DNA of 39,326 bases from Syntrophaceae bacterium (GTDB lineage Bacteria > Desulfobacterota > BSN033 > UBA1163), in NCBI GenBank assembly GCA_018333715.1, contig JAGXSW010000068.1:1-39326 (forward strand), given 5' to 3'. Below, piece by piece: positions 3,920-39,076 of the stretch (the stretch's first letter is position 1; each line of letters starts with the position of its first letter). Under the pieces are notes generated by a model. The model was not told where the DNA came from, searched no databases, and worked only from the letters and a program-made list of their open reading frames with translations. The position numbers were made by a program, and so were the translations under genes.

Positions 3920-3942
3920 GGGTGGAAAATCGGAGGAACCGG

Positions 3943-10050: not shown

Positions 10051-10087
10051 ATCTTTTGAAAAGGGTTAATTTGAAGGAGGAAGCGGA

Positions 10088-12961: not shown

Positions 12962-12974
12962 ATCTGACGACATA

Positions 12975-13243: not shown

Positions 13244-13252
13244 TTTAAAACG

Positions 13253-23451: not shown

Positions 23452-23456
23452 AAGAA

Positions 23457-23718
23457 ATGGAATGATGGAACAATGGAATAATGGGTGAGAAAAAGGGATT
23501 TTTATGGTTTTACTCAACATTGATAGTCTCGTAAAAAGTCGTCTCACCGGTGAAAACCGGTGTCCAGTGTTTTCATAACCGTCTGAGATTACTGGATTCC
23601 CCGATCAAGTCGGGGAATGACGATCATTAGGATTTTTAGACTTTTTACGAGACCATCAACCTTCCATTATTCCAATATTCCAGTATTCCGGAATTTTATT
23701 GTCCATACTGATCATTAA
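23457..23718. repeat. composite intergenic repeat (family B hairpin plus TTGTCCAT module, reverse orientation) interrupted by a MITE
   Basis: Reverse-complement collinear with 12975-13243 and 28248-28362. Confidence 0.8.
23523..23657. mobile_element. MITE family A copy with decayed target-site duplication
   Basis: ATAGTCTCGTAAAAAGTC...GACTTTTTACGAGACCATC. Flanks are AACATTG and AACCTTC, against the uninterrupted AACATTC (as GAATGTT) at 28299-28305. Confidence 0.85.
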
Positions 23719-25698: not shown

Positions 25699-26811
25699 AT
25701 GAACAAAAAAGAGAGAAAACTATTAGTGGTGGATGACAACATCGACTTCGTCCATTTCATACGGAGAGCTTTGGAACAGGAGAATTACCGAATCTCCATC
25801 GCCCTGGATGGGAAAACAGCCATTGAAAAAGCGTCAACAGAAAATCCGGAGCTCATTCTCCTTGACATGAAACTGCCTGACATATCGGGAGAAGAGGTAT
25901 TGGAGAGGGTTAAGGAGATCAATAAAGGTATCCCCGTGATGGTCATCACCGGTTATGGAGGAGACCAGTTGGCCATCGACATGATGAGAAAAGGGGCTGT
26001 CGATTTTCTCACAAAACCTCTGGAACCCCGGATTCTTATCAAGGCGATAAAGAACGCCCTGGCGATTCACGACACCCGGCAGGAGGACAAAAAGTTTAAC
26101 CCCTATCCCTCTCTTGAAATATTTTTCCCTTTTCTCGCCCATGAGATTCGAAATCCCCTCCATGCCATCTCAGGGGCCCTGGCCATCATCCAAAAGCGCT
26201 GTAATTTGAAGGATCAATTTCTCACCCAATCCATCAAGATCATCCATGAAGAAGTTCAGCGCTTAAATGATTTCGTTCAGGGGTGTCTCAATTTTGTAAG
26301 ACCTCCCGATTTCATTCGTTTCAGCGAGGTGAACCTCCGGGAGGTGATTTCAGTGACCGTGAGCATGCTGGCTCACATGTTTGAATCCGAATCAAATAAA
26401 ATCGAGATCACCGTCAAGGCTGATCCTGATCTCCCAAAGGTTTATGTCAATTATGAAGAGATTAAACAAGCCTTTTTAAACATCATCAAAAATGCCTATG
26501 AGGCGATGCCTGAAGGAGGGGAATTATCGATCGAGGCCTCCGAGACCCATGAATCCCCCAAAATGATAGAAGTTGTTTTTACGGATCAGGGGGTAGGAAT
26601 AAAGAAGGAAGCGATGGGCTCTCTCTTTAGTCCTTTTTATACCAACAAACCCAGGGGAAATGGGTTAGGGTTGGCCCTCTGTCGAAGAATCATTGTCGAA
26701 CGTCATCAGGGGACAATCCATATCGAAAGCGAAGAAAAGAAGGGAACAACGGTTAAAGTAAAGTTGCCCGCCACCCGACTACAAGAAAATACTCCAGGAG
26801 AAGCATCGTGA
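25699..26811 (+). CDS. hybrid receiver-histidine kinase (REC-HisKA-HATPase), cytoplasmic
   Basis: REC motifs VVDDN, LLDMKLPD, ITGYG, LTKP. H-box FLAHEIRNPL, N-box NIIKNAYEAM, G-boxes DQGVGI and GNGLGL. No TM segment. Confidence 0.9.
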   Translation: MNKKERKLLVVDDNIDFVHFIRRALEQENYRISIALDGKTAIEKASTENPELILLDMKLPDISGEEVLERVKEINKGIPVMVITGYGGDQLAIDMMRKGAVDFLTKPLEPRILIKAIKNALAIHDTRQEDKKFNPYPSLEIFFPFLAHEIRNPLHAISGALAIIQKRCNLKDQFLTQSIKIIHEEVQRLNDFVQGCLNFVRPPDFIRFSEVNLREVISVTVSMLAHMFESESNKIEITVKADPDLPKVYVNYEEIKQAFLNIIKNAYEAMPEGGELSIEASETHESPKMIEVVFTDQGVGIKKEAMGSLFSPFYTNKPRGNGLGLALCRRIIVERHQGTIHIESEEKKGTTVKVKLPATRLQENTPGEAS

Positions 26812-28188
26812 CGTCTCAAGCTTCTATTTTAGTGGTCGATGACGAACCCAATTCTCTTTTCGGAATATGCGAGGTTCTCAACGATGAGGGTTTTAATGTC
26901 CTTCCGGCCGGAAACGGGAGAGAAGCGTTGGGGTTGCTCCATGTGAATCCCATCAATGTGATCGTGACCGACGAGAAGATGCCTGACTTGAGCGGCATGC
27001 AGTTCCTCGCCGAAGTAAAGAAGAACCATCCAGACATTCCGGTGATCCTCATCACGGCTTACGGGTCCGTTTCGATGGCGGTTGAAAGCCTCAAGCAAGG
27101 GGCGTTCTATTTCTTTGAAAAACCGATTTTCAATAATTTAGAGAGATTTGTCACCATCATCCGGCAGGCCGTCAAAACTCAGGAGATGGAGAAAGAAATC
27201 AACTCTCTAAGAAGAGAAGTGACTGAAAAATATTCTTTCCCAAATGTCATCGGGAATCACCCCAAAATGATTGAGATTTTTGAGACCATTGGAAAGGTAT
27301 CCAGGACCGATGCGACCATTCTCATTCAGGGGGAGAGCGGGACCGGGAAAGACATCATTGCAAAAAACGATCCATTACAATAGTTCGAGACGGGAAAAAC
27401 CGCTGGTAACCGTCAATTGTGGAGCGCTCACGGAAAGCCTTCTCACGACGGAATTATTTGGCCACACAAGGGGAGCGTTTACAGGCGCGGTCAAGGATAC
27501 GATCGGACGCTTTCAGGCAGCCCATGAAGGGAGCTTGATCTTGGATGAAATCAGTGAAATTCCAGTCAATCTTCAAAAAAACCTTTTAAGAGTGATCGAA
27601 GAAAAGGAGTTTGAAAGGGTGGGGGATTCGAGGTCGACCAAGGTCGATGTTCGAATCATCTCCACAACCAACCGAAACCTTAGGGAAGAGGTGGTCAAAG
27701 GTAATTTCAGGGAAGATCTTTATTATCGATTGGGCATCGTTCCAATAACTCTCCCCCCCTTAAGGGAGCGCCTCTCAGACCTCCCATTGCTGGTCAACCA
27801 TTTTCTTAAGAAGTTCCAGAAAGGCAAGGTTCCGTTAAAAATTGAGCCGGAAGCAATCGAGCGTCTCAAGACATTTTCCTGGCCTGGAAATGTCAGGGAA
27901 TTGGCCAATGTGGTTCAGCAGATGGCGGTTTTCTGTCGAAATCATATCATCAGGGTTGATGACCTTCCTTCCCACCTTCTTCTCAATGCGGAAGATGTCC
28001 TGGCTGGGGAAAAGGGGAAGGTTGACTTAATGAAGAGGGTAGGAAATCTTGAGAAAAAAACAATTCTTGCTAAATTGAAAGAGACCAACTGGAATCAAGA
28101 GAAGACAGCAGAACTGCTTGGAATAACAAGGAAAATGCTGTCGAATCGAATCGATAAATATCATCTCAAGCCATTAAAAAAGAGGTGA
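26808..28188 (+). pseudogene. NtrC-family sigma-54-dependent response regulator (REC-AAA+-HTH) with the frame broken at an A6 run
   Basis: - ORF 26808-27383 ends GESGTGKDIIAKNDPLQ*.
- The +1 frame continues KTIHYNSSRREKPLVTVNCGA...GAFTGA...Fis-type HTH.
- Deleting one A at 27362-27367 restores GKDIIAKTIHY. Confidence 0.85.
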
Positions 28189-28213: not shown

Positions 28214-28362
28214 GGGTTAAGGTTACGGTTACGAAGCCCGTAACGTACAATGAACGATGGACAACGAACATCCGTAATAATGGAAGATTGGAATAATGGA
28301 ATGTTGGGTAAAACTAAAAGATAACTTCTCCTTACCCATTATTCCACTATTCCATCATTCCA
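28214..28362. repeat. uninterrupted composite repeat (family C core, CAATGAACGATGGACAA module and family B hairpin): the empty-site reference
   Basis: Contains both intact MITE target heptamers, AAGATTG at 28284-28290 and GAATGTT at 28299-28305. Confidence 0.85.
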
Positions 28363-28378
28363 CTTGAGGATATAATCT

Positions 28379-29293
28379 ATGGACTCTCACTGGATTCTTC
28401 TGATCGATCCCTTTAAAAATCTCTTGAACACCTACCGGATGATTTTGGAGGAGGAAAATTATTGTATTGATACAGCCCTTAATACGAAAGACGCCCGCTC
28501 TCTTTTTGATATAAGGCCATACTCGGCTATCCTTATGGAATATATCCCGCCCCTTGAGCATTTGCAGGAACTGATCCGGTGGATGAAAGAAAAGTCTCCT
28601 GAAATCTATATCCTGATGGTGACGAATGCGGTGGTGGACGAAACCACCTATGAGAAACTTTTTGAGATAGGGGTCGATGACTTCATTCTGAAACCCTATG
28701 CCCCTCAAAAAATCATCATCCGTATTAAAAAGGGGTTGAAGCAAAGAGAGATGATCGTAAAGGTCAACCAATTAGAAAGATTGAACCTCCTTGATCCCAT
28801 CGCAAGAAATATTGAGGAATTGATATTCAGCAAAATATTTTTAAAAAGATGTCTTCGACAGGAATTAAAGAAATCGAGACGGCACTGCCATCCTTTCTCG
28901 ATTCTCCTCATGCAAATCCCGGCGAAGGAAAAGGGCGGGGAACAATATGACCATTTTTATGGCGAACTTGCAAGGAGGATTAGAAAATTTATAAGGGAAG
29001 AGGATCTCATGATAAAGAATAATGGGGAGATTGTTCTCCTCCTTCCTGATACCAACCAGATGGGTTCCCAAGCCTTGAGGGGGAGGCTTTCAAATTTAAT
29101 TCGAAATGATCCCTCATGGATATCTGACGATCTCCTAAGTGCGATGCTTCAAGCCTCATCATTTCAATGTTTTACCTATCCTGACCAGTTTGATCTTCCA
29201 GAACCCCTCAGAGGCGTAGTTCAAGAGATGCAGAAGGAATTGTCCCTCAATAGTTCCTCCTTTTTGCTCCAGAACCGAAACTCCTCGAAATGA
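28379..29293 (+). CDS. atypical receiver domain fused to a degenerate GGDEF domain that retains an RxxD I-site
   Basis: - REC-like with E at the phospho-acceptor position (ILMEY) and only one acidic residue in LLIDPF.
- The GGDEF fold is traceable (DPIARN...SILLMQIP...GELARRI...LLLPDT).
- The active site is NGEIV in place of GG(D/E)EF.
- REED sits in register with the PleD RxxD I-site, four residues ahead of the GG-equivalent position. Confidence 0.75.
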   Translation: MDSHWILLIDPFKNLLNTYRMILEEENYCIDTALNTKDARSLFDIRPYSAILMEYIPPLEHLQELIRWMKEKSPEIYILMVTNAVVDETTYEKLFEIGVDDFILKPYAPQKIIIRIKKGLKQREMIVKVNQLERLNLLDPIARNIEELIFSKIFLKRCLRQELKKSRRHCHPFSILLMQIPAKEKGGEQYDHFYGELARRIRKFIREEDLMIKNNGEIVLLLPDTNQMGSQALRGRLSNLIRNDPSWISDDLLSAMLQASSFQCFTYPDQFDLPEPLRGVVQEMQKELSLNSSSFLLQNRNSSK

Positions 29294-29446
29294 TTCAAAT
29301 TAATTCTCTCCCATGTGCCATTTGGCTCACAAAAAGCGCCAAATGGTTGATCTGGACACTTATCGAAATATTTCTCCAAAACTTTCTCTCAACAATCATC
29401 AACCAATTCGATAGATTACAAAGTTTTCAGGAGAAGCCAATAGATT

Positions 29447-29460
29447 GGTATAATTATTGC
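29447..29460 (+). promoter_or_regulatory. weak candidate sigma-54 promoter TGGTAT-AATTA-TTGC
   Basis: Correct GG-N10-GC spacing and a TTGCT -12 element, but a poor -24 element in an AT-rich context. About 250 nt upstream of 29706. Confidence 0.25.
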
Positions 29461-29514
29461 TATATAATGCGAAACTGAGGTCAATTGGTAAAGGTTACGT
29501 TCAAAGACTTAAAA

Positions 29515-29660
29515 CACTAGTGTACTGTTACAGTAATCACTTTACAATCTTGTCATTCCGGACTTGATCCGGAATCCAGTCTTTTCTATCTGGATTCCCG
29601 CTTTCGCGGGAATGACATTTCTAGGGTTATTGTAAAGCTGTTATTGAAACACTACACTAG
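29515..29660. mobile_element. MITE-like element sharing family A inner hairpin modules but with different termini
   Basis: Termini CACTAGTGTA...TACACTAG. Inner GTCATTCCGGACTTGATCCGGAATCCAG and CTGGATTCCCGCTTTCGCGGGAATGAC. Confidence 0.7.
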
Positions 29661-29705: not shown

Positions 29706-30107
29706 ATGTCAAAAGAAACCATTCTCATCCTCAATAAAGAACGTGGGGATTCCTCTCATCTAAAAACCTTTTTAGAAAAAGAGAAATATATTGTGCTCCC
29801 GGTCAATACCATTGATAGGCTATTAACCAATTTCCAGGAATTCGAAGTTTCAGGGGTCATTGTTGATCTTAATGCGGATCATCTTTACCTTTCTGAAATC
29901 ATTAAAAAAATAAGGGAAAGGTTCCCCAAACTCTATGTCATGATGATGGCGGATGGGAAGATTGGCGAAAAGGAGCATCAGAAGGTGATCGAGACAGGGG
30001 TTTATGATTTCTTTGTCAAGCCGATGCCTTTCGAAAAAATCCTTTTTCACCTTAAAAGCGGATTGAAACAACGCAAGAAATATCTTCAAAAAAGAGCGGA
30101 AAGCTAA
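29706..30107 (+). CDS. single-domain atypical receiver protein
   Basis: REC fold with NKE replacing the DD acidic pair and M at the T/S position. D (VIVDLN) and K (FFVKP) are retained. The tail GLKQRK is paralogous to that of 28379. Confidence 0.7.
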   Translation: MSKETILILNKERGDSSHLKTFLEKEKYIVLPVNTIDRLLTNFQEFEVSGVIVDLNADHLYLSEIIKKIRERFPKLYVMMMADGKIGEKEHQKVIETGVYDFFVKPMPFEKILFHLKSGLKQRKKYLQKRAES

Positions 30108-30147: not shown

Positions 30148-31809
30148 ATGGAACTGAATACCCTGTCTAAGACATTTGAAAAAATCCCGGAAAGTTCCTT
30201 TTTCATGAACAAAGGCAATCGGGCATTCGGCCTCTTCGAGAAGGTTCAGGGGGCGATGCGTCATGTGCCTGATTTTGGTGAAACCTGCATGGCCATTTTG
30301 GATGTTGTGATCGAGGAGACCGATGCCGAAAACTGCTCACTGATGTTGAAAGATCCCGTTTCCGGATATCTCGTGGTTCGTTCAGCCCGAGGGAAGGGTG
30401 AAAAAAAGAGTGTTTTTTACCCCGAACAGCCTGGAAATGGAGAAAGATTTAGATCCGGAGATGGCATTGCGGGGAAAGTTCTCAAAGAAGGACAGGCCAT
30501 CATGCTGAATGATGTGAAAAAAGAGCCCCATTTCTTAAAGGCAGATGGCTTGAGCGAAAAAGTAAATTCCCTGATCTGTTTTCCCATCCGGGAAGAGGAT
30601 CAAGTCGTGGGAGTATTTAACATCAGCCATTCCCAAAGAGGAGCCTTCAACGAAGGAGACAAATGGGCGCTATCCTATATCTCCAACCAGGTCGGAAGGG
30701 CTCTCACCTCCTCACGGTTCTTTTTAGAGATAAAGGAAATAAACCGTTTAATGAAGCAGTCTGAAAAGCCTTCGCCTGCCGCCCCTCCCGCCTTTGTGGA
30801 AGTCGGCGAAATGACTCGTGAGAACGGGATTTTTATCTATGCAAGTGAAAAAATGCATCGAATTAAAGAACTGATTGATCAAGTTGCCGATACAGACGTG
30901 ACGGTCTTGATCCAGGGGGAGAGCGGCGTTGGAAAAGAGGTGGTTGCCCGCTCGATCCATCTCAATTCTTTTCGGAAAGAAAAGCCGTTTGTCAAAGTGA
31001 ATTGCGCCGCTCTTCCGCAAGAACTTCTGGAAAGTGAACTGTTTGGCTATGAGAAGGGCGCCTTTACGGGGGCTTACCGGCAGAAACCGGGGAAATTTGA
31101 ACTTGCCCAAGCCGGTACGATCTTTTTAGACGAGATCTCAGAGATGAGCCCTTTTCTCCAGGGCAAGCTTTTACAAGTGCTTCAGGACAGAGAATTCTCA
31201 AGATTGGGAGGGAAGAAAGATATATGGGTGGATGTTCGGGTCTTGGCTGCTACAAATAAAAATATCGAAGAAATGGTAAACCATCAACGATTTCGTGAAG
31301 ATCTCTATTATCGTCTCAATGTCGTCAACGTTACCCTTCCTCCCCTGAGGGAGAGGAAGGAGGAAATTCCCGTTTTTATCGAATATTTTTTGGATAAATT
31401 CAGCAAAAAATACCAGAAAAAGGCACACCCATTATCGAGCAAGATCATGAGGATTTTTAAACAACATCGTTGGCTGGGAAATGTTCGTGAACTGGAGAAT
31501 GTCGTTCAGCGTTACGTGATTCTTGAAAACGAAAAGATGATTATGGATGAATTAACTCATGGGATCATCGAGAATGCGACCATCGAAAAAGAACGGTCCC
31601 TCGCCCATTCCAAAGCCTGGCCTTCATTGAAAGATGCCTATAGAGAAGCCACGATCAAAGCGGAATCCGAATCCATTCTCAAGGCATTGCAGATAACGAA
31701 CTGGAATAGAAAAAGAGCAGCCCAACTCCTCAATATAAGCTATAAAGCGCTCCTTTATAAGATTAAAGATAGTGGCCTTGATAAGCTCATTCTCCCTATG
31801 ACGGCTTAA
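30148..31809 (+). CDS. GAF-domain sigma-54-dependent transcriptional activator
   Basis: N-terminal GAF-like domain ([18 protein letters not shown]), Walker [25 protein letters not shown]-terminal Fis-type [22 protein letters not shown]. Confidence 0.9.
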
Positions 31810-31841
31810 ATTTTCATATCATATTAAGGAGTTGAATGGTG

Positions 31842-31987
31842 ATGGTCTCGTAAAAAGTCGAAAAATCATAATAATCGTCATTCCCCGACTTGATCGGGAA
31901 ATCCAGTAATCTCAGGCACTTATGAAAATACTGGACACCGGTTTTTCCCGCGTTTCGCGGGATGAGACGACTTTTTATGAGACCATC
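31842..31987. mobile_element. MITE family A copy (inverted orientation) with a perfect 7-bp target-site duplication AATGGTG
   Basis: ATGGTCTCGTAAAAAGTC...GACTTTTTATGAGACCATC. AATGGTG at 31835-31841 and 31988-31994. Confidence 0.9.
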
Positions 31988-32068
31988 AATGGTGGTTATA
32001 ATAAAAATCAAAAAAGAATATCTTTTGAAAAGAGAACTCCCCGTTTTTTTTCGATGGTAAAGGGCAAT

Positions 32069-32213: not shown

Positions 32214-32228
32214 TGGCACTTTAATTGC
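32214..32228 (+). promoter_or_regulatory. sigma-54 promoter TGGCAC-TTTAA-TTGC
   Basis: Exact consensus. ATG 32246 lies 17 nt after the GC. Confidence 0.8.
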
Positions 32229-32245
32229 TCTTCAATTTAATTGTT

Positions 32246-33301
32246 ATGAATAACTTTTCTAAAATTATTTTTTCTAATAGTTTAAAGATGAAAAAGGTCA
32301 AAACCATTATTGATCAAATCGCACAGACCGATATCACGGTTTTAATAAAAGGCGAAAGCGGAACGGGGAAGGAATTGATAGCCAGGACGATTCACGATGT
32401 TTCTCCGAGGGCAAAAAACAATTTTATAAAACTGAATTGCGCTGCCATTCCTAAAAGCCTCATTGAAAGCGAGTTTTTTGGGTTTGAAAAAGGGGCCTTT
32501 ACAGGAGCCCACCTCAAGAAGCCGGGGAAGTTCGAATTAGCCCATGGGGGAACAATATTGCTAAATGACATCGGTGAGATAGACATTTCGATCCAGGGCA
32601 AACTTCTCCAGGTCCTCCAGGATGGAAAATTTTCCCGATTGGGAGGAGAGGGGGATGTCCTGATCGATGCCCGGATCATCGTCACCACTAAAAATCATTT
32701 GGAAAGATCTATGATGGAAGGGCTTTTCCGTGAGGACCTTTTCTACAGGATTAATATCATCAGCATCACGGTTCCTCCCCTAAGAGAACGGAAGGAACAG
32801 ATCCTTCCGCTTACCGAATATTTTTTCAATTTTTTTAAAGAGAAATATAGAAGGGATGTCCCCTCCCTCTCGCCGAAAGCCACCAGGATATTCAAAGAAT
32901 ACCTTTGGCCGGGAAACATCCGGGAATTAGAGAACGTCGTCAAGCGGATGGTCGTCACATCGGATGAAAAGGCGGTCATTCAAATGCTTCTCGGAAAAAA
33001 GGAGAATGGCGAGATCGTCGTCGAATCCTTAAGGCCCAACGGCATCGGAGAACCGCTCCTCAATTTGAAGGAAGTGGGAAGAAAAGCGGGTGAAGAAGCG
33101 GAGAAAGATCTCATTCATGCCACCCTCCATGAGACCCATTGGAATCGAAAGGAGGCGGCCGAATTGCTCCGTACCAGTTACAAGGCGTTGCTCTATAAAA
33201 TTGAGAAATACCATTTGAATAATGGGAGGGAGTATCAGGGAAAGGGAGAGATGGCCGGTTCAATCACTGAACCCATCTCAAACAGGACTGGAGGAAAGTG
33301 A
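32246..33301 (+). CDS. sensorless sigma-54 activator (AAA+ plus HTH only)
   Basis: The AAA+ domain begins within about 20 aa of the start (KKVKTIIDQIAQTDITVLIKGESGTGKE). GAFTGA is present, with [22 protein letters not shown]. No REC, GAF or PAS domain. Confidence 0.88.
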   Translation: MNNFSKIIFSNSLKMKKVKTIIDQIAQTDITVLIKGESGTGKELIARTIHDVSPRAKNNFIKLNCAAIPKSLIESEFFGFEKGAFTGAHLKKPGKFELAHGGTILLNDIGEIDISIQGKLLQVLQDGKFSRLGGEGDVLIDARIIVTTKNHLERSMMEGLFREDLFYRINIISITVPPLRERKEQILPLTEYFFNFFKEKYRRDVPSLSPKATRIFKEYLWPGNIRELENVVKRMVVTSDEKAVIQMLLGKKENGEIVVESLRPNGIGEPLLNLKEVGRKAGEEAEKDLIHATLHETHWNRKEAAELLRTSYKALLYKIEKYHLNNGREYQGKGEMAGSITEPISNRTGGK

Positions 33302-33918
33302 TGGAAAAATTAATGTCCTTTGGAATCATTGGGATAGCCATCCTTTTGATCTATTATTCAGCGGCTTACCCTCAAACAGAGAAAGAGGGCCTGTTAAAAA
33401 AACAGCTCCAGGCTGAGGTGGTTGCTGATAGTGAAAATTATATCATCGGGTCGGAGGATATCCTTTACATCCATGTATGGAGGGAGGATGCATTATCAAG
33501 ATCCGTTCCGGTGAGAGTGGATGGATATATTTCCTTGCCCCTCATTCACGAAGTGAAGGCAGCCGGCCTTACGCCTCTTCAATTAAAAGAGGAAATAACT
33601 AAAAAATTAAAGGAGTTTATTGAGAGCCCCAATGTTTCTGTCACCGTGATGGAAGCCAATAGTTTCAAGGTTTTTGTTTCAGGGCAAGTCAGGACCCCGG
33701 GGGTCATACGGCTTCGAAGCGAAACCACCATCCTTCAATTGATTCCCATGGTGGGGGGGTTCACAGACTGGGCCAACCAGAAGAAGATTCTGATCATTCG
33801 AAAAGAAGACGGAAAAGAGAAGCGTATTACGATTAACTACAAACGGATTGTTGATGGAAAGGATTTGAATTCAAATATCATTCTAAAATCGGGCGACACT
33901 ATTATCGTCCCGGATTAA
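33301..33918 (+). CDS. polysaccharide export protein (Wza/Poly_export plus SLBB; PEP-CTERM-locus type)
   Basis: YIIGSEDILYIHVW...VRVDGYISLPLI..V.AAGLTPLQL...V.V.EANSFKVFVSGQVRTPG...LKSGDTIIVP. The ATG overlaps the upstream TGA (GTGATGG) behind GGAGGAAAG. Confidence 0.9.
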   Translation: MEKLMSFGIIGIAILLIYYSAAYPQTEKEGLLKKQLQAEVVADSENYIIGSEDILYIHVWREDALSRSVPVRVDGYISLPLIHEVKAAGLTPLQLKEEITKKLKEFIESPNVSVTVMEANSFKVFVSGQVRTPGVIRLRSETTILQLIPMVGGFTDWANQKKILIIRKEDGKEKRITINYKRIVDGKDLNSNIILKSGDTIIVPD

Positions 33919-33926
33919 GAGGTGAT

Positions 33927-35393
33927 ATGAGGATAACAAAAAAGGCTACCTCTAATAATGTCATTCCTGCGAAAGCAGGAATCAAGAAATTTTTGAAATC
34001 ACTGGACTCCCGCCTGTGCGAGTGTGGCAAATTGATAATTATTAGAGGTTCCCAAAAGAGAATCTGGCTGGGGATAGCGATCCTTTTCCCAATCATCGTG
34101 GGAATACCCATCGTCGTCCAGGCGGCAGTCGAGGACATCCTCTCGCACTTTCAGGTCTATGTGACGGCCCAGGAAGAATATAACAGTAATATCGACCTGA
34201 GGCCGAACCGATTTAAAAGGGACGATTTTATTACCACGATCTCTCCCGGGATAAGATTTTCCACAACACCCAAATCACCTGTGACGGGTGAATTCAGGCA
34301 GACCCCCACTGCTGAAGAAAGGTATGGCGTGGATCTCGACTTCCGGGCGGGATTCGTCTTTTATGCCAAAGAACATGATGACAATTATATCAGTCTTAAC
34401 GGAACGCTCAACGGTTGGTATACATTCACCCGAAATTTAACTTTCCGGGTGAGGGACTACCTGATTCGGTCCGATGAAATAAGAGAAACGGACTTGTCTG
34501 CCAGTGCGCTGCCGGGCCAAACTCTTCTTGCGAGAACCAACCGGAGAGAGCCCTATTACCGAAATGTCTTTGAACCTTCCCTGGAATATCGGTTTGGGAG
34601 AGAAAACCTTGTTGCCGTTAACTACCGAAACAGCATCTACAGGATTAAGAGCCGGACCGCTGAAGACAGCACGGAAAACTATTTCAATCCCAGGGTCGCC
34701 TATTGGTTCAATGTCAGACATGGCGTCTCCTTTGAATATGGCCTGTCACTCGGAGATTTCCAGCGATCCCCCGATTTGGTAGGGCATATGGCGATGGGCC
34801 GTTATACCTATCGTTTTAATCCGAGGACTTCGGTCTTCGGGGAATATACTTATTTAACCCGTGATTTTGAATCGCCTTCGATTGGCTATGATGTCCATCG
34901 ACCGAGCCTTGGGATTGACCATGCTTTCAGTCCGACATTGAGCGGAAGGGGACAGGCGGGGCACTTCTGGCAAAACCCGGAGAGAGGTTCCACCACCCGT
35001 GGGTTCTTTTATGATGCAAGCCTCTCGAAGCGTGGAGATAAGACCACCTATGCTCTCTCTTTTCAGGGAGGATATACAGAGGTTTATTTTGCTGCTGAGA
35101 ATCTTGGTTTTATAAAAAACCATCGAGTAACTGGGAGTATCACTCACCAACTTCTACAAAGGATGTCCGTCGGACTTTATAGCAGTTATGAATGGGCCAA
35201 ATACCCCGGGACCGAGATCGGGTTCAGAACGCCCGTCGATCAAATCTGGGGGGTTGGAGGAAATGCCTCGTATCAGATACTGAGATGGCTTAATCTATCC
35301 CTTGATCTCTCGCACCGGGAGAATCGCTCCAATATTTCAGACAGGGACTATAGCGAATACCGCGGGATGTTAAGAGCAACAGCCACCTATTAA
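33927..35393 (+). CDS. outer-membrane beta-barrel protein, PEP-CTERM/EPS-locus associated, with a repeat-derived insert in its N-terminus
   Basis: Signal peptide KRIWLGIAILFPIIVGIPIVVQA. Alternating beta-strand pattern throughout, with an aromatic C-terminal residue (ATATY). Residues 8-41 are encoded by the repeat at 33949-34048. Confidence 0.8.
   Translation: MRITKKATSNNVIPAKAGIKKFLKSLDSRLCECGKLIIIRGSQKRIWLGIAILFPIIVGIPIVVQAAVEDILSHFQVYVTAQEEYNSNIDLRPNRFKRDDFITTISPGIRFSTTPKSPVTGEFRQTPTAEERYGVDLDFRAGFVFYAKEHDDNYISLNGTLNGWYTFTRNLTFRVRDYLIRSDEIRETDLSASALPGQTLLARTNRREPYYRNVFEPSLEYRFGRENLVAVNYRNSIYRIKSRTAEDSTENYFNPRVAYWFNVRHGVSFEYGLSLGDFQRSPDLVGHMAMGRYTYRFNPRTSVFGEYTYLTRDFESPSIGYDVHRPSLGIDHAFSPTLSGRGQAGHFWQNPERGSTTRGFFYDASLSKRGDKTTYALSFQGGYTEVYFAAENLGFIKNHRVTGSITHQLLQRMSVGLYSSYEWAKYPGTEIGFRTPVDQIWGVGGNASYQILRWLNLSLDLSHRENRSNISDRDYSEYRGMLRATATY
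33949..34048. mobile_element. short MITE-like element with 11-bp perfect terminal inverted repeats inside the coding region
   Basis: CCTCTAATAAT...ATTATTAGAGG. Inner module GTCATTCCTGCGAAAGCAGGAATC is shared with family A and translates as VIPAKAGI. Confidence 0.7.
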
Positions 35394-35403
35394 CACGTGA
35401 GGT

Positions 35404-35451
35404 CCCCTCACCCTCCCCTCTCCCCGTGGGGGAGAGGGAAAGGGTGAGGGG
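35404..35451. repeat. GC-rich palindrome (REP-like intercistronic stem-loop)
   Basis: CCCCTCACCCTCCCCTCTCCCC-GT-GGGGGAGAGGGAAAGGGTGAGGGG. No T-run follows. Confidence 0.7.
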
Positions 35452-35480
35452 CGACTAACGATTTTACGGAGTATAAAACC

Positions 35481-37046
35481 ATGCCCGAACAAACGCCTTT
35501 AAACATTCATGATTACTTAGCCATTGGCCTCCGGAGGAAATGGTACATCCTCATTCCCCTCATCGTCTGTGTTCTGGGTTCTTTTGGGGTCTATAAATAC
35601 CTCCCGAAGGTTTATCAGGCCACCACGCTCATTCTGGTTCAGCCCCAGAGGGTTCCGGAGGCTTATGTCCGTCCGACCGTCACCGAAACGGTGGCGAGCC
35701 GGTTGAACACGATCAGCCAGGAAATCCTGAGCAGAACCAGGCTGGAGCAGGTGATTCTCGAATTCAGCCTTTATCCCGAGATTCGAAACAAAGTCCCGAT
35801 GGAAGGAATGGTCGAAATGATGAGAAGAGCGATCGAGGTCAAAGTTCAGGGAAATCCTCGAAGCGACCGGGACCAGAACTCGTTTTCGATTTCCCACGAA
35901 GGGAGAGATCCCCGGACGGTCATGATGGTGACGAACAAGCTTGCTTCCCTGTTCATTGAAGAGAACCTGAAAGTGAGAGAGTTGCGCGCAGAAGGCACTT
36001 CGGCCTTTATCACCAAAGAGCTCGCGGCCGTGGAGGAGCAACTGAAGAAGAAAGAAGCGGACCTCCGCCTTTTTAGGGAACGAAATATGGGACAGCTTCC
36101 CCAGCAACTCGATGCCAACTTAAGAATCCTTGATCAATTGCAGCAGCAGATTAAAACCACAAGCGAGAATATCCGGGCTGCCGAAGACAGAAACATCGTG
36201 ATTCAGAATCAAATTGAGATGCTGAAAAAACGCGAGCCTGTTCAAACCTCAAGGGAGGTTCCAAGGGATCCTGTCTCGGGGTTGGAAAGTCCGACCGCTG
36301 AGCGGGTTCGCGAGGATTCCCTGGTCGTACAACTGAACCTTCTGAAGAGGGATTTGAACAATGCCCAGTCCAGGTATAAGGAAACCCACCCGGATGTCAT
36401 CGATCTGAAGAAAAAGATAGAAAACCTCGAGCCCAAAGTGAAGGAAATACTGGAAAAGCAGGGAGTGGAGAGAGAAACGCGGGCGAGAGATTTCAGGGTC
36501 CGCCAGGAAGGGGTGATCGTTGGAAACTTGCCTCCGCCCGCGCCGGATCTTGAAACCCAGAGACTCCTCACCCAGTATACGGAGCAGTACAATGCGGCGG
36601 CATTAGAGGCGAAGCGGTTTAGGGAAGAAGAAAAAGGCTTGAAGGATCAAATCAATCTGTATCAACGAAGAATCGAGAATACGCCAAAGCGTGAGCAGGA
36701 ACTGACCCTCTTGACCCGGGATTACGATCTGATGAAGATCAATTACCAGTCTCTCCTGGAAAAAAAAATCCAGGCCCAGTTGGCGGAGAATCTCGAGCGC
36801 AAACAGCAGGGTGAGCAGTTTAAAATCCTGGACCCGGCACGTGTTCCTGTCACCCCGATTCGACCCGATCGGAATAGGATTCTTCTCATAGGAGTTGCCA
36901 TCGGCCTTGCTCTTGGGGTGGGGTTAACCTGGTTTAAAGAAACGATGAATCAGTCTTTCAAAACAGTCTCCGACGTTGAGAGCGAACTTGGATTGACGGT
37001 CCTGGCCGCCATCCCGAATTTAAAAAAAGAAAAGAAAGCCGCCTGA
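35481..37046 (+). CDS. polysaccharide chain-length determinant (Wzz/PCP family, PEP-CTERM-locus type)
   Basis: N-terminal TM segment (KWYILIPLIVCVLGSFGVY), long coiled-coil periplasmic region, C-terminal TM segment (ILLIGVAIGLALGVGLTWF). Confidence 0.88.
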   Translation: MPEQTPLNIHDYLAIGLRRKWYILIPLIVCVLGSFGVYKYLPKVYQATTLILVQPQRVPEAYVRPTVTETVASRLNTISQEILSRTRLEQVILEFSLYPEIRNKVPMEGMVEMMRRAIEVKVQGNPRSDRDQNSFSISHEGRDPRTVMMVTNKLASLFIEENLKVRELRAEGTSAFITKELAAVEEQLKKKEADLRLFRERNMGQLPQQLDANLRILDQLQQQIKTTSENIRAAEDRNIVIQNQIEMLKKREPVQTSREVPRDPVSGLESPTAERVREDSLVVQLNLLKRDLNNAQSRYKETHPDVIDLKKKIENLEPKVKEILEKQGVERETRARDFRVRQEGVIVGNLPPPAPDLETQRLLTQYTEQYNAAALEAKRFREEEKGLKDQINLYQRRIENTPKREQELTLLTRDYDLMKINYQSLLEKKIQAQLAENLERKQQGEQFKILDPARVPVTPIRPDRNRILLIGVAIGLALGVGLTWFKETMNQSFKTVSDVESELGLTVLAAIPNLKKEKKAA

Positions 37047-37051
37047 CCAAG

Positions 37052-37090
37052 CAAATGCTCGCAGAGCGCAAAGCGCAAAGCGAGCATTTG
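37052..37090. repeat. 11-bp perfect stem-loop CAAATGCTCGC-N17-GCGAGCATTTG
   Basis: Read directly. Intercistronic, with no T-run. Confidence 0.6.
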
Positions 37091-37131
37091 AAAATTAGGT
37101 TTTACGCTATGCGCTATGCGAGATTCTGAAA

Positions 37132-38127
37132 ATGTACGAAACTTTTTACGGCTTAAATGAAAATCCATTTAATGTGACGCCGAATCCGGAGTTTATCTTT
37201 CTCGGGAAAAACCACCGGGAAGCCCTGGCTCAGTTGCTTTATGGGGTCAGGGAGAAGAAAGGGTTTATTGTCATAACCGGAGAAGTGGGCACGGGAAAGA
37301 CCACTTTGATTCATTATCTTCTTGAGAAACTGGAGGGAAACAACCATACCAAGACGGCCTTTCTCTTCAACCCCAAATTAACCGTTCATGATTTCATTCA
37401 ATACATACTCAAGGATTTGGGGGTAAGGGTTCAGGGGCAAACGAAGGGCGAACATCTTCATCATCTTCATCGATATTTACTGAACGCTTACCGGAGAGAC
37501 GAGCGGGTGGTTTTGATCGTGGATGAAGCCCAGGGGTTAAACCCGGAACTTCTCGAAGAGATCAGGCTTCTTTCGAACCTCGAGACCTCAAAGTCTAAAT
37601 TGCTTCAAATTGTGCTGGTGGGTCAGCCGGAATTGGATAAGACGCTTTCACGGCCCGGATTTCGTCAACTCCGACAGAGAATCAACCTGCGATACCATCT
37701 GACGCCTCTTTCCGAAAAGGAGACCGGAGAATACATTGAAAAGAGATTGAGAATTGCCGGTTCACATGACCCCATCTTTACGGACCAGGCCATTCGTGAG
37801 ATCTATCGGAGATCAGGCGGAATACCCAGACTCATTAATATCCTGAGTGACAATGCGCTCTTAAATGGCTTTGCCCTCGATCAAAAACAGGTGAATGCAA
37901 AATCAATCAGGGAAGTTTCCGCAGATCTAAAACTTCATCAGGAGTCTCGTCGGGTCTGGCAATGGGTCCTTCTTTGTTTAGCGATCGTGTCCGGATTCAT
38001 CGTTTTCTTTTATTTAAACCAGGAGGGTTACTTATCGCCTCTTTATCATGAGGTCCTCAGGGGATTTGAATCGGTGAAACGAATATGGGTGGATGGATGG
38101 AAACACTTTTCCAATCTCTTTAACTAA
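37132..38127 (+). CDS. ExeA/GspA-like AAA ATPase (PEP-CTERM-locus secretion ATPase type)
   Basis: MYETFYGLNENPFNVTPNPEFIF, Walker A GEVGTGKTT, Walker B VLIVDEAQ, C-terminal TM segment WVLLCLAIVSGFIVFFY. Confidence 0.9.
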   Translation: MYETFYGLNENPFNVTPNPEFIFLGKNHREALAQLLYGVREKKGFIVITGEVGTGKTTLIHYLLEKLEGNNHTKTAFLFNPKLTVHDFIQYILKDLGVRVQGQTKGEHLHHLHRYLLNAYRRDERVVLIVDEAQGLNPELLEEIRLLSNLETSKSKLLQIVLVGQPELDKTLSRPGFRQLRQRINLRYHLTPLSEKETGEYIEKRLRIAGSHDPIFTDQAIREIYRRSGGIPRLINILSDNALLNGFALDQKQVNAKSIREVSADLKLHQESRRVWQWVLLCLAIVSGFIVFFYLNQEGYLSPLYHEVLRGFESVKRIWVDGWKHFSNLFN

Positions 38128-38239
38128 AACGCTATGCGCCTCCTGTTCTCCGTATTCCTGCGAAGAAAGACGAAGGACGGATGCGCTATGCTTGCCCATC
38201 GAAATGTCCCTGTAGGTGGGCGCTTTGCGAGGTTCTGTC

Positions 38240-39076
38240 ATGAGTCGAGTTTATCGCGCCCTTGAAAGAGCAGAAGAAGAGAAAAAGAAGAAACAGGAAG
38301 GGCCCTCAATCAACGTATTTGAGAACATTGAGGTTTTGAAGAAAGAGAAGCCGGTCGTAAAAATCCGTGAGGAGAAGAGAAAGAGTCTGGGGCTTCTCCC
38401 AAGGGAAGAATTCCCGGTGTTGATGGTTTCGCCTCGCTCTTTTGCAGAGGAGGAATTTCGGAAACTGAAGACACAGCTATTTCTTCGTTTGCCGAACCCC
38501 CCTCATTCGATTCTTGTCACCAGCGCCGTTCCCCGGGAGGGGAAGACAATGGTGGCGGTGAACTTAGCAATGGCGATTTCAAAGGAGATTCATAAAAAGG
38601 CCATCCTGATCGATGGCGATCTCCGAAACCCCGGCATTCATCTCGGTAAAAGCCGGACTTCCAAGGGGCTCTCCGACTATCTTTCCGATGGGACTCCCTT
38701 ACCGGAGATTCTTACAAACTCTGAAGCTGAAAACCTTCAAATCATCACCGCAGGAACTCAAACGGCGAAATCCTCGGAATTGATCGGTTCACCAAGAATG
38801 GGGGAGTTTTTAAAAGCCGTTGCCGAATGCGGAAAAAATGCTTATCTCGTGATCGATTCTTCGCCTGTGATTTCCACGACAGAGCCGACGTTGTTGTCAA
38901 GCATGGTGGACGGCATCATTCTCGTCATCATGGCGGACCGAACCCCCAAGGAGTATGTTCAAAGGGCTCTGAAATCCATCGATCGCCAGAAAATCATTGG
39001 AATCGTTTTAAACCAGATCGATGTTAATCCATCGAATCATTACTCGAGGTATTATTACCAATATTACCAAAAATAG
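38240..39076 (+). CDS. BY-kinase type tyrosine autokinase (exopolysaccharide locus)
   Basis: Walker A PREGKT, A-prime ILIDGDLRNP, Walker B LVIDSSPV, C-terminal Tyr cluster YSRYYYQYYQK. ATG 38240 (MSRVYRALERAEEE) preferred over GTG 38216. Confidence 0.9.
   Translation: MSRVYRALERAEEEKKKKQEGPSINVFENIEVLKKEKPVVKIREEKRKSLGLLPREEFPVLMVSPRSFAEEEFRKLKTQLFLRLPNPPHSILVTSAVPREGKTMVAVNLAMAISKEIHKKAILIDGDLRNPGIHLGKSRTSKGLSDYLSDGTPLPEILTNSEAENLQIITAGTQTAKSSELIGSPRMGEFLKAVAECGKNAYLVIDSSPVISTTEPTLLSSMVDGIILVIMADRTPKEYVQRALKSIDRQKIIGIVLNQIDVNPSNHYSRYYYQYYQK

What the first reader, a model, noticed from the sequence alone, without database searches (positions are those of the whole stretch)
28379..29293. Atypical receiver plus catalytically dead GGDEF with a preserved RxxD I-site: likely c-di-GMP receptor beside an EPS locus
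The phospho-acceptor Asp is Glu (ILMEY), a phosphomimetic-like change, and the acidic pair is reduced to one residue.

In the GGDEF domain the metal and active-site signature is lost: MQIP replaces DID and NGEIV replaces GGEEF (28..29 kb; NNGEI at 29018-29032). REED (28994-29005) sits in register with the PleD RxxD I-site.

Degenerate GGDEF proteins with I-sites, such as PelD and PopA, act as c-di-GMP effectors. The position upstream of sigma-54 activators and a polysaccharide export operon, together with three PilZ proteins elsewhere in the window, suggests c-di-GMP input into EPS control through a non-canonical adaptor.
Basis: partly seen in the sequence, partly recalled or inferred. Interest (0 to 1): 0.62.

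Follow-up and report, generated by a model that had tools for sequence, protein, structure and literature searches.

The report
Dead REC-GGDEF protein, likely c-di-GMP sensor
This gene encodes a signalling protein that has lost both its phosphorylation site and its enzyme active site but strictly keeps the pocket that binds the messenger c-di-GMP, so it is most likely a c-di-GMP sensor built into the control cassette of a polysaccharide export locus; that is a known kind of protein in a family nobody has studied.

Summary
ORF 28379-29293 (+, 304 aa) is a receiver domain followed by a GGDEF domain.

**What is lost.** The phospho-acceptor Asp is Glu (E54). The acidic pair is Asp-Pro. The active site is gone: QIP replaces DxD, and NGE-I replaces GGEEF with a one-residue deletion.

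**What is kept.** REED (R206-D209) aligns exactly with the PleD I-site R359xxD362. Two further I-site residues are also present: R236 matches R390 and K165 matches R313. Across 121 homologues and 30 species-level representatives (45-91% identity), R206, D209, R236 and E54 never change. Active-site positions drift freely.

**Context.** The family occurs only in uncultured Thermodesulfobacteriota (Syntrophorhabdus/Syntrophaceae-type MAGs). It almost always sits in one cassette: REC-histidine kinase, NtrC-type activator, this gene, a paralogous pseudo-receiver, a GAF activator, a sensor-less activator, then XrtA/PEP-CTERM-like export genes. Sigma-54-type promoters in the cassette are conserved.

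**Reading.** It is most likely a non-catalytic, phosphorylation-independent c-di-GMP receptor feeding into EPS regulation, like PopA, BcsE, PelD and PssE. Binding and partner are untested. It is a new member of a known kind, of moderate interest. In this strain the upstream activator is frameshifted, and the gene's own last codons are shifted.

The parts
28379..29293 (+). REC*-GGDEF* ORF, 304 aa. The family norm is 291 aa.
28394..28726 (+). Pseudo-receiver (REC*) domain, residues 6-116.
   Evidence: Pfam Response_reg, 43.4 bits. The model shows a (beta-alpha)5 fold with pLDDT mostly 80-90.
28406..28411 (+). D10-P11 in place of the acidic pair. The first acidic residue is kept and the second is Pro.
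   Evidence: Invariant in 121/121 and 30/30 sequences. Aligns with E-D of canonical L033.
28538..28540 (+). E54 at the phospho-acceptor position.
   Evidence: Aligns with the phospho-Asp of NtrC1 and with D of L033. Invariant in 121/121 and 30/30.
28829..29236 (+). Degenerate GGDEF (GGDEF*) domain, residues 151-286.
   Evidence: Pfam GGDEF, 26.9 bits, for residues 151-245. Best Foldseek hits are WspR, DgcR and PleD.
28871..28873 (+). K165, equivalent to PleD R313, the trans (secondary) I-site arginine.
   Evidence: alignment. K or R in all 121 and all 30 sequences.
28913..28921 (+). Q179-I-P181 in place of the metal-binding D-x-D.
   Evidence: The position is variable within the family (Q/K/R/G/P/E/N).
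28994..29005 (+). R206-E-E-D209, the RxxD primary I-site motif.
   Evidence: Aligned with PleD R359-A-I-D362 and with RxxD of 7e6g, 6zxm and 6d9m. R and D are invariant in 121/121 and 30/30.
29021..29032 (+). N215-G-E-I218 in place of GG(D/E)EF, with a one-residue deletion.
29084..29086 (+). R236, equivalent to PleD R390, the third primary I-site residue.
   Evidence: alignment. Invariant in 121/121 and 30/30.
29237..29293 (+). Non-native C-terminal tail. A 1-nt deletion near 29241 bypasses the family stop.
   Evidence: DNA alignment with L004 and L005. The deletion is present in contigs of the source runs and in two independent assemblies. The tail has pLDDT below 50.
25699..26811 (+). REC-HisKA-HATPase hybrid kinase, first gene of the conserved cassette.
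   Evidence: Synteny.
26808..28188 (+). NtrC-type REC-AAA+-HTH activator (bEBP1). Here it is split into two ORFs by an extra A near 27362.
29446..29461 (+). Sigma-54-type promoter TGGTATAATTATTGCT upstream of REC2.
   Evidence: An equivalent site is present in 18 of 20 related loci.
29706..30107 (+). Stand-alone pseudo-receiver REC2, a paralogue of REC*.
   Evidence: 29% identity to REC*, E 7e-18. It keeps the Asp but has N-K for the acidic pair and Ala for Thr. Pfam Response_reg and VpsR.
30148..31809 (+). GAF-AAA+-HTH sigma-54 activator (bEBP2).
32214..32229 (+). Sigma-54-type promoter TGGCACTTTAATTGCT upstream of bEBP3 and the export genes.
   Evidence: An equivalent site is present in 19 of 20 related loci.
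32246..33301 (+). Sensor-less AAA+-HTH sigma-54 activator (bEBP3). The likely start is the ATG at 32246.
33298..39076 (+). XrtA/PEP-CTERM-like polysaccharide export genes: export protein, beta-barrel, chain-length determinant, ATPase and tyrosine kinase.
   Evidence: Pfam. The best NCBIfam hits are TIGR03027, TIGR03007, TIGR03015 and TIGR03018, all somewhat below their cutoffs.

Best explanation
The ORF encodes a stand-alone pseudo-receiver fused to a catalytically dead GGDEF domain (REC*-GGDEF*).

**Shown from sequence**
- It cannot be phosphorylated in the normal way. The acceptor is Glu, and the second metal-binding acidic residue is Pro.
- It cannot make c-di-GMP. Both metal-binding Asp residues and the GG(D/E)EF signature are lost.
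- It keeps a complete allosteric I-site (R206xxD209, R236, K/R165) under strict purifying selection.

**Inferred**
- An intercalated c-di-GMP dimer binds this I-site and changes the conformation or oligomeric state of the protein.
- The REC* domain has Glu54 with T82 and K105 retained. It probably sits permanently in one (possibly 'active-like') conformation and serves as the protein-protein interface.
- Through that interface the protein passes the c-di-GMP level to the regulatory cassette it always travels with. The most likely partner is the REC-histidine kinase/NtrC-type activator pair encoded directly upstream, with which it is probably co-transcribed. Alternatively the partner is one of the two downstream sigma-54 activators.
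- In this way it tunes sigma-54-dependent expression of the adjacent XrtA/PEP-CTERM-like polysaccharide export genes.
For: - **Domains and fold.** Pfam finds Response_reg and GGDEF. The AF2 model has mean pLDDT 76, and its best PDB matches are the REC-GGDEF cyclases WspR, DgcR and PleD.
- **Register.** PleD, 7e6g, 6zxm, 6d9m, 5euh and 4iob alignments, plus canonical L033, all place REED on RxxD, NGE-I on GGEEF and QIP on DxD. R236 matches R390 and K165 matches R313. These four residues are the ones the literature defines as the I-site (PMC7288161).
- **Selection pattern.** R206, D209, R236 and E54 are invariant in 121/121 homologues and in 30/30 species representatives down to 45% identity. 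Position 165 is always K or R. Active-site equivalents vary: position 179 is Q/K/R/G/P/E/N, position 187 takes 7 residues, and position 217 takes 6. In a wider clade of degenerate relatives, RxxD and the R390-equivalent are also kept.
- **Context.** The order REC-HK, bEBP1, REC*-GGDEF*, REC2, GAF-bEBP, bEBP3, export genes is conserved in nearly all of about 29 species loci, even where the flanks differ. Sigma-54-type promoters are conserved before REC2 (18/20 loci), before bEBP3 (19/20), and before this gene itself in 9-10/20.
- **Transcription.** An RNA-run contig from a relative about 94% identical spans bEBP1 into this gene.
- **c-di-GMP use.** The organism very probably uses c-di-GMP: three PilZ proteins have intact RxxxR and NxSxxG motifs.
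- **Precedents.** BcsE is a REC*-GGDEF* tandem that binds c-di-GMP at RxxD and regulates cellulose secretion, and PelD does likewise for Pel (PMC7439463). The search also listed a paper on c-di-GMP control of Listeria exopolysaccharide (PMC4125290); I did not read it, and the role of PssE there as an I-site receptor is from my own knowledge.
Against: - No binding data exist, and all family members come from uncultured MAGs.
- The GGDEF* domain is strongly remodelled. It has a 5-residue deletion after the GHxxG region, a 5-residue insertion in the N-terminal DxLTGLxNR hairpin, and no final beta-strand. The pocket geometry could therefore differ.
- The relative placement of the two domains in the model is unreliable. 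pTM is 0.47 and linker residues 132-151 have pLDDT below 50.
- No partner is identified. The choice between the kinase/bEBP1 pair and the downstream activators rests only on gene order.
- In this particular strain bEBP1 is frameshifted and the gene's own 3' end is shifted. The module may be decaying here.
- The export genes score below NCBIfam cutoffs, and no exosortase is seen before the contig ends.
Confidence: 0.6

Rival explanations
1. It is a pure protein-interaction adaptor or scaffold that binds no nucleotide. The RxxD/Arg surface is conserved because it contacts a protein partner or stabilises the fold.
For: Other surfaces specific to this family are equally invariant, for example R168-H169, P223/T225/G229/S230, and the C-terminal SFQxFTYPDQFxxP motif. 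The domain is heavily remodelled. BcsE shows that GGDEF* domains can carry separate partner-binding surfaces.
Against: All four residues that define the I-site are retained together, in register, while the neighbouring active-site residues drift. That pattern is not expected for a generic protein interface. RxxD is not needed for the GGDEF fold; many GGDEF domains lack it (established knowledge).
Confidence: 0.2
2. The retained pocket binds a different nucleotide rather than c-di-GMP, for example (p)ppGpp, another cyclic dinucleotide, or GTP.
For: The best global Foldseek matches (TM 0.52-0.55) are recent PleD structures that hold both c-di-GMP and (p)ppGpp (9g85, 9g86). This shows that REC-GGDEF proteins can bind other nucleotides. 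Some degenerate GGDEF domains sense GTP at the active site (established knowledge).
Against: The active-site residues needed for GTP binding are gone. The conserved residues are exactly those that contact c-di-GMP. The Foldseek ranking reflects domain arrangement in a model with low pTM.
Confidence: 0.08
3. In this strain the gene is a decaying remnant. The operon is being lost, and the copy in the window has no function, whatever the family does elsewhere.
For: Two frameshifts lie within 2 kb of one operon. One is the extra A near 27362 that splits bEBP1 at the Walker A region. The other is the 1-nt deletion near 29241 in this gene. Both are reproduced in contigs of the source runs and in two independent assemblies. 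A REP-like repeat has been inserted in front of the gene. The sigma-54 promoter found there in many relatives is absent.
Against: 287 of the 291 family positions are read in frame, with all invariant residues intact. The tail change affects only the poorly conserved last residues. The downstream genes are intact.
Confidence: 0.12
4. It is still an active, if unusual, diguanylate cyclase, or it is a normal phosphorylatable response regulator.
For: Some non-canonical motifs, such as AGDEF, retain activity; this rests only on the title and abstract of PMC3974145 as listed. JGI annotations call relatives 'PleD family response regulator' or 'diguanylate cyclase'.
Against: Both metal-binding Asp residues are replaced (Q179, P181). 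GG becomes NG, with a deletion inside the motif. The position equivalent to the base-binding Asn is Gly. These positions are not even conserved within the family. The acceptor Asp is Glu in every member, and the second acidic residue is Pro.
Confidence: 0.02

Closest known systems
PleD / WspR / DgcR (active REC-GGDEF diguanylate cyclases with I-site feedback inhibition)
   Same: They are the closest relatives by sequence and by fold. They share the REC-linker helix-GGDEF order and the same I-site residues (R359, D362, R390, R313 in PleD) in the same register.
   Different: This protein has no phospho-acceptor Asp, no metal-binding Asp residues and no GG(D/E)EF motif. It has deletions and insertions around the active site and lacks the last beta-strand. 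It has one receiver domain, whereas PleD has two.
PopA (Caulobacter; PleD paralogue, c-di-GMP effector)
   Same: Both are response-regulator-like proteins with a degenerate GGDEF active site and a functional RxxD I-site that acts as the c-di-GMP input. Output is by protein-protein interaction and does not need phosphorylation (established knowledge).
   Different: PopA has two receiver domains, keeps an Asp at the acceptor position, and acts in cell-cycle proteolysis. This protein has one receiver with Glu and sits in a sigma-54/EPS cassette. No specific sequence relationship to PopA was tested, because PopA has no PDB sequence in the searches.
BcsE (enterobacterial cellulose secretion regulator; former GIL domain)
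   Same: Both carry a phosphorylation-incompetent REC* followed by a catalytically incompetent GGDEF* that binds c-di-GMP through RxxD. Both regulate exopolysaccharide secretion (PMC7439463).
   Different: BcsE has an extra N-terminal degenerate NTPase domain and acts post-translationally on the Bcs machine through BcsQ and BcsF. There was no Pfam GIL hit here, and no BcsE entry in the PDB sequence hit tables down to E = 1 or in the 50 Foldseek matches that were displayed.
PelD (Pseudomonas) and PssE (Listeria) degenerate-GGDEF I-site receptors
   Same: A degenerate GGDEF domain acts as a c-di-GMP receptor through RxxD, plus a further Arg in PelD, and is encoded next to the EPS genes it activates (established knowledge).
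   Different: PelD is membrane-anchored with a GAF domain, and PssE is membrane-associated. Both act on synthase complexes. This protein is soluble, carries REC*, and is embedded among transcription activators. There was no PelD_GGDEF Pfam hit.
Aspartate-less receivers / pseudo-receivers (e.g. ChxR, FrzS)
   Same: The pattern here is Glu at the acceptor position, first acidic residue kept, second lost, and Lys kept. This is the commonest pattern reported for aspartate-less receivers, which are enriched in front of GGDEF domains (PMC4395418; PMC12632262).
   Different: Most characterised examples are DNA-binding or polar-localisation proteins. None is the partner of a dead GGDEF domain in a sigma-54 cassette.

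Membership tests
GGDEF domain superfamily (PF00990) | Significant match to the family profile, and the cyclase-type fold. | tested here: met
   26.9 bits against a cutoff of 23.8, covering profile positions 11-111 of 161. Foldseek E 5e-15 to 1e-12 to WspR, DgcR and PleD.
Active diguanylate cyclase | GG(D/E)EF signature with the catalytic Glu. | tested here: not met
   N215-G-E-(deletion)-I218.
Active diguanylate cyclase | Metal-binding Asp residues (PleD D327/D329 region) and base-binding Asn/Asp. | tested here: not met
   Q179 and P181. Gly at the Asn335 position. A 5-residue deletion next to the GHxxGD region. These positions vary within the family.
I-site c-di-GMP-binding GGDEF proteins (functional class: PleD, WspR, PopA, PelD, BcsE) | RxxD motif five residues upstream of the GG(D/E)EF position. 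| tested here: met
   R206-E-E-D209, then five residues, then N215-G. Invariant in 121/121 and 30/30 sequences.
I-site c-di-GMP-binding GGDEF proteins | Additional Arg residues of the site (PleD R390, and R313 in trans). | tested here: met
   R236 is invariant, and K/R165 is always basic. The definition of the site is from PMC7288161.
I-site c-di-GMP-binding GGDEF proteins | Measured binding of c-di-GMP that is lost in RxxD mutants. | not testable with these tools
   This needs purified protein (DRaCALA, ITC).
Phosphorylatable response-regulator receiver (PF00072) | Receiver fold and profile match. | tested here: met
   43.4 bits against a cutoff of 30.2. The model shows a (beta-alpha)5 fold.
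Phosphorylatable response-regulator receiver (PF00072) | Phospho-acceptor Asp and two metal-binding acidic residues. | tested here: not met
   E54 and D10-P11, invariant in the family. T82 and K105 are kept.
BcsE / GIL domain (PF10995) | Match to the GIL profile, and an N-terminal NTPase-like domain. | tested here: not met
   No GIL hit at E up to 1. The protein starts directly with REC*.
PelD | Transmembrane segments, a GAF domain, and a PelD-type GGDEF profile. | tested here: not met
   The only Pfam hits at or above their curated cutoffs are Response_reg and GGDEF; two sub-threshold chance hits, rpo30_N and Cas_Cas2CT1978, were also listed. No PelD entry appears in the PDB sequence hit tables or in the 50 Foldseek matches that were displayed.
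PopA | Two receiver domains followed by a degenerate GGDEF. | tested here: not met
   There is a single receiver domain.
XrtA/PEP-CTERM EPS locus (neighbouring genes) | Equivalog-level matches to TIGR03027, TIGR03007, TIGR03015 and TIGR03018, and presence of exosortase XrtA. | tested here: inconclusive
   These are the best NCBIfam hits, but all fall below their cutoffs: 155/180, 242/279, 304/324.5 and 169/231. The contig ends before any exosortase could be seen.

The most novel reading that the evidence does not exclude
The REC*-GGDEF* protein may be a c-di-GMP-gated pseudo-substrate of its own ancestral kinase. The Glu54 receiver would still dock on the adjacent REC-histidine kinase, or on the receiver of the NtrC-type activator. 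c-di-GMP binding at the I-site would decide whether it blocks or permits phosphotransfer. That would gate a three-tier sigma-54 cascade (bEBP1, then REC2/GAF-bEBP2, then bEBP3 and the export genes). This would be the first c-di-GMP input described for a PEP-CTERM/exosortase-type EPS system, and it would be in syntrophic Thermodesulfobacteriota. The domain-level recombination seen in the gene would then reflect exchange of receptor modules between strains.
Probability: 0.2. Interest if true: 0.6.

Novelty: new member of a known kind. Interest (0 to 1): 0.4.

Why it matters
Degenerate GGDEF proteins that keep only the I-site are an established but small class of c-di-GMP receptors. Each characterised one (PopA, PelD, BcsE, PssE) revealed a different output mechanism.

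This family offers an unusually clean natural experiment. The four I-site residues are invariant, the catalytic residues drift, and the gene sits in a fixed position inside a multi-activator sigma-54 cassette next to polysaccharide export genes.

If binding is confirmed, it would show how c-di-GMP enters transcriptional control of PEP-CTERM-like EPS production. The organisms are uncultured syntrophic Thermodesulfobacteriota, in which aggregation and granule formation matter ecologically. It would also give a tractable example of what an aspartate-less (Glu) receiver does.

The find is useful for annotation: database names such as 'PleD family response regulator' or 'diguanylate cyclase' are misleading for these proteins. 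It is not conceptually new.

Tried and rejected
- **Rfam.** A scan of the whole window at gathering thresholds found nothing.
- **Inverted repeats upstream of the gene (28284-28365).** I considered them as an activator-binding site or an RNA structure. They are copies of dispersed REP-like intergenic repeats also found at 12970-13244 and 23455-23706. This also explains the depth spikes, so I rejected them as specific regulatory sites.
- **Sigma-54 promoter directly upstream in the window.** None was found, even with no score threshold, although 9-10 of 20 relatives have one there.
- **Assembly error as the cause of the two frameshifts.** Rejected. Contigs built independently from the source runs match the window with 0 differences across both sites. 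Two separate assemblies call the same split genes.
- **Confirming an exosortase downstream.** The look-up by the tyrosine-kinase ORF found no record, probably because the called start differs. The look-up by the ATPase found the source contigs, which end about 1.2 kb further on.
- **Membership in BcsE/GIL or PelD.** There were no profile hits, no entries in the PDB sequence hit tables and none among the 50 Foldseek matches that were displayed.
- **Literature.** A search for PEP-CTERM combined with c-di-GMP and sigma-54 found nothing on this family.
- **Model coordinates.** They are not readable in the sandbox, so I could not measure the I-site geometry in the AF2 model.
Full report
**1.

The ORF 28379-29293 (+) encodes 304 aa.
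- ILMEY at 28529-28543
- MQIP at 28910-28921
- REED at 28994-29005
- NNGEI at 29018-29032

Pfam finds a receiver domain (residues 6-116, 43.4 bits). It also finds a partial GGDEF domain (residues 151-245 against profile positions 11-111 of 161, 26.9 bits, just above the 23.8-bit cutoff). The best NCBIfam matches are PorX, PleD and DgcR, all far below their cutoffs.

**2. Residue register**

phmmer alignments to solved structures give a consistent picture.

*Receiver domain*
- E54 lies on the phospho-acceptor Asp of NtrC1.
- An alignment with a canonical REC-GGDEF-HD-GYP protein from an Omnitrophota MAG (L033) puts D10-P11 on its E-D acidic pair, E54 on its Asp, T82 on Thr and K105 on Lys.

*GGDEF domain*

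Alignments to PleD, 7e6g, DgcR (6zxm), 6d9m, 5euh and TpbB, and to L033, all agree:
- Q179-I-P181 replaces D-I-D.
- Gly replaces the base-binding Asn.
- There is a 5-residue deletion after the GHxxG region.
- R206-E-E-D209 lies on PleD R359-A-I-D362.
- N215-G-E-(gap)-I218 lies on G368-G-E-E-F372.
- R236 falls on PleD R390 and K165 on R313.

A review defines the I-site as exactly these four residues: RxxD plus R390 from one domain, and R313 from the adjacent one (PMC7288161). So the active site is destroyed and the complete I-site is present.

**3. A conserved family with a telling selection pattern**

The protein database holds 483 homologues. The best 120 are 56-91% identical and about 291 aa long, and all are metagenomic. 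Counts at key positions in 121 sequences and in 30 species-level representatives from GTDB genomes down to 45% identity are:

| Position | 121 homologues | 30 species representatives |
|---|---|---|
| E54 | 121/121 | invariant |
| D10-P11 | 121/121 | invariant |
| R206 | 121/121 | invariant |
| D209 | 121/121 | invariant |
| R236 | 121/121 | invariant |
| 165 | always K or R | always K or R |
| 179 (active site) | Q in 102, P181 in 114 | Q/K/R/G/P/E/N |
| 187 (active site) | not tabulated | 7 different residues |
| 217 (active site) | E in 110 | 6 different residues |

This is the pattern expected if the I-site is functional and catalysis is long lost.

An exhaustive profile search of 1.84 billion representatives finds only 22 clusters at E up to 1e-30. 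Beyond these lies a gradient of relatives:
- One tier has Glu at the acceptor position and a degenerate active site.
- Another tier has canonical receivers but the same one-residue-deleted, degenerate GGDEF motif.
- All of them keep RxxD and the R390-equivalent.
- Further out, the hits merge into ordinary REC-GGDEF cyclases.

**4. Structure**

The AlphaFold2 model has mean pLDDT 76 and pTM 0.47. The linker (residues 132-151) and the tail (292-304) are disordered. The model shows a normal (beta-alpha)5 receiver with a long alpha-5 helix and a compact cyclase-like core.

The best Foldseek PDB matches are full-length WspR, DgcR and PleD (E 5e-15 to 1e-12). PelD and BcsE are not among the 50 matches that were displayed. 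The family is therefore an independent degenerate offshoot of REC-GGDEF cyclases, not a member of the PelD or BcsE families. There was also no GIL or PelD_GGDEF Pfam hit.

**5. Genomic context**

The window carries, in order:

| Coordinates | Gene |
|---|---|
| 25699-26811 | REC-HisKA-HATPase kinase |
| 26808-28188 | NtrC-type REC-AAA+-HTH activator (bEBP1) |
| 28379-29293 | this gene |
| 29706-30107 | stand-alone receiver REC2 |
| 30148-31809 | GAF-AAA+-HTH activator |
| 32246-33301 | sensor-less AAA+-HTH activator (bEBP3) |
| 33298-39076 | polysaccharide export genes |

The best NCBIfam matches of the export genes are the XrtA/PEP-CTERM set: export protein, chain-length determinant, ATPase and tyrosine kinase. 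All score somewhat below their cutoffs. The contig ends before an exosortase could be seen.

This exact order recurs in nearly all of about 29 species-level loci. All are Thermodesulfobacteriota MAGs labelled Syntrophorhabdus, Syntrophaceae or 'delta proteobacterium'. The order holds even where the outer flanks differ.
- One locus (L031) keeps only kinase, bEBP1, this gene and the export genes.
- In the Omnitrophota outgroup (L033), a similar REC-kinase precedes a canonical REC-GGDEF-HD-GYP protein.
- Together these tie the gene most closely to the upstream kinase/activator pair.

REC2 is the closest paralogue of REC* (29% identity, E 7e-18). It is itself a pseudo-receiver: it keeps the Asp but has N-K for the acidic pair and Ala for Thr.

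Sigma-54-type promoters are conserved:
- before REC2 (TGGTAY-N5-TTGCT) in 18/20 loci; in the window at 29446
- before bEBP3 (TGGCAY-N5-TTGCT) in 19/20 loci; in the window at 32214
- about 28 nt before this gene in 9-10/20 relatives (TGGCAGTAAATTTGCA), but not in the window

A metatranscriptome contig from a relative about 94% identical runs from bEBP1 through this gene. This is compatible with co-transcription, although DNA carry-over cannot be excluded.

The three PilZ genes (1380-1775, 3922-4332, 4348-4734) have intact RxxxR and NxSxxG motifs. They show that the organism uses c-di-GMP. They are separated from this locus by the nusA-infB-truB-pnp region and other housekeeping genes.

**6. Mechanism**

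*Shown.* The protein lacks the residues for phosphorylation and for cyclase activity, it keeps all I-site residues, and it is a fixed component of a sigma-54/EPS regulatory cassette.

*Inferred.* c-di-GMP binds the I-site, probably as an intercalated dimer as in PleD, WspR, PelD and BcsE. Binding alters the conformation or oligomerisation of the protein. The REC* domain then transmits this to a partner regulator.

On the Glu at the acceptor position:
- Glu is the commonest substitution in aspartate-less receivers (26%).
- The first acidic residue and the Lys are typically retained, and such receivers are enriched in front of GGDEF domains (PMC4395418).
- A 'locked active-like' REC* is therefore only a hypothesis.

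The most likely partner, from gene order and operon structure, is the upstream kinase/bEBP1 pair. The sensor-less bEBP3, which would need a trans-acting regulator, is the main alternative.

**7. Rivals**

- A nucleotide-free adaptor: confidence 0.2.
- A sensor of another nucleotide: 0.08. PleD structures holding (p)ppGpp were the best global matches, but the model's domain placement is unreliable.
- A decaying copy in this strain: 0.12.
- Residual enzymatic or phospho-acceptor activity: 0.02.

**8. State of this allele**

- bEBP1 is split by an extra A in an A-run near 27362 (A6 here, A5 in L005 and L006).
- This gene has a 1-nt deletion near 29241. It bypasses the family's stop and adds a 13-aa, low-confidence tail.
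- Both changes are present, without any difference, in contigs built from the two source runs (subsurface metagenomes) and in two separate public assemblies. They are real features of this population, not errors of the window.
- The gene is also a domain-level mosaic. Nucleotides 28379-28690 are 96.5% identical to L005 and 73.7% to L004. Nucleotides 28691-29236 are 94.7% identical to L004 and 73.6% to L005. The switch falls at the conserved DDFILKPY motif.

**9. Comparison and verdict**

Functionally the protein resembles PopA, BcsE, PelD and PssE, which are degenerate GGDEF I-site receptors, three of them controlling exopolysaccharides. By descent it is nearest to active REC-GGDEF cyclases.

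It fails the defining tests for an active cyclase, a phosphorylatable receiver, BcsE/GIL, PelD and PopA. It meets all sequence-level tests for an I-site receptor. No paper on this family was found.

It is a new, uncharacterised member of a known kind. Interest is moderate (0.4).

Noticed in passing
window 26808-28188 (frameshift near 27362): The NtrC-type sigma-54 activator upstream of the finding is split into 191-aa and 305-aa ORFs. The cause is one extra A in an A-run just after the Walker A motif (GESGTGKDIIAK). Relatives have an intact gene of 459-467 aa. The extra base is present in source-run contigs and in two independent assemblies, so it is a real mutation in this population.
   Followed up: yes
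window 29237-29293: A 1-nt deletion near 29241, relative to L004 and L005, shifts the last codons of the REC*-GGDEF* gene. It bypasses the usual stop (TAG at 29246-29248 in the other frame) and adds a 13-aa tail.
   Followed up: yes
window 28379-29236: The gene is a recombinant mosaic. The REC* part (to about 28690) is 96.5% identical to MAG locus L005 and 74% to L004. The linker and GGDEF* part is 94.7% identical to L004 and 74% to L005. The breakpoint lies at the conserved DDFILKPY motif. So there are two diverged alleles of the GGDEF* module in otherwise 92-95% identical genomes.
   Followed up: partly
window 28243-28365, 29589-29616, 12970-13244, 23455-23706, 31834-32001, 1-104, 33935-33993: Dispersed REP-like or MITE-like intergenic repeats, including GGAATGAC-type hairpins, occur in many intergenic regions. 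They cause depth spikes in metagenome and metatranscriptome contigs. One copy is inserted directly upstream of the REC*-GGDEF* gene.
   Followed up: partly
window 29446-29461 and 32214-32229; related loci L001-L032: Sigma-54-type promoters are conserved across about 20 species before REC2/GAF-bEBP and before bEBP3 and the export genes. Many relatives have a third one about 28 nt before the REC*-GGDEF* start. This suggests a multi-tier sigma-54 cascade.
   Followed up: partly
window 29706-30107: The stand-alone receiver REC2 is a second pseudo-receiver. It keeps the Asp but has N-K in place of the acidic pair and Ala in place of Thr. It is the closest paralogue of REC* and gives a weak VpsR-domain Pfam hit. 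It lies 40 nt upstream of the GAF activator.
   Followed up: partly
window 32225-33301: The mechanical ORF start of bEBP3 (TTG at 32225) overlaps the sigma-54 promoter. The likely true start is the ATG at 32246, only about 17 nt after the promoter's GC element. This implies a very short leader.
   Followed up: partly
window 551-566 and 1349-1364: Further sigma-54-type promoter matches lie upstream of a DUF4124 gene (581-1108) and of the first PilZ gene (1380-1775).
   Followed up: no
window 2000-3919: A 639-aa ORF between the PilZ genes has no Pfam or NCBIfam match.
   Followed up: no
window 19954-20088 and 9995-10060: Tandem and dispersed 66-nt AT-rich direct repeats (TTGCTAATTTTGCA-type) lie upstream of the DHH-CBS-poly(A) polymerase gene and of infB.
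   Followed up: no
locus L016 162-1157: One family member carries an insertion of about 45 aa inside the GGDEF* domain, right after the degenerate DxD position. Its locus appears to lack REC2.
   Followed up: no
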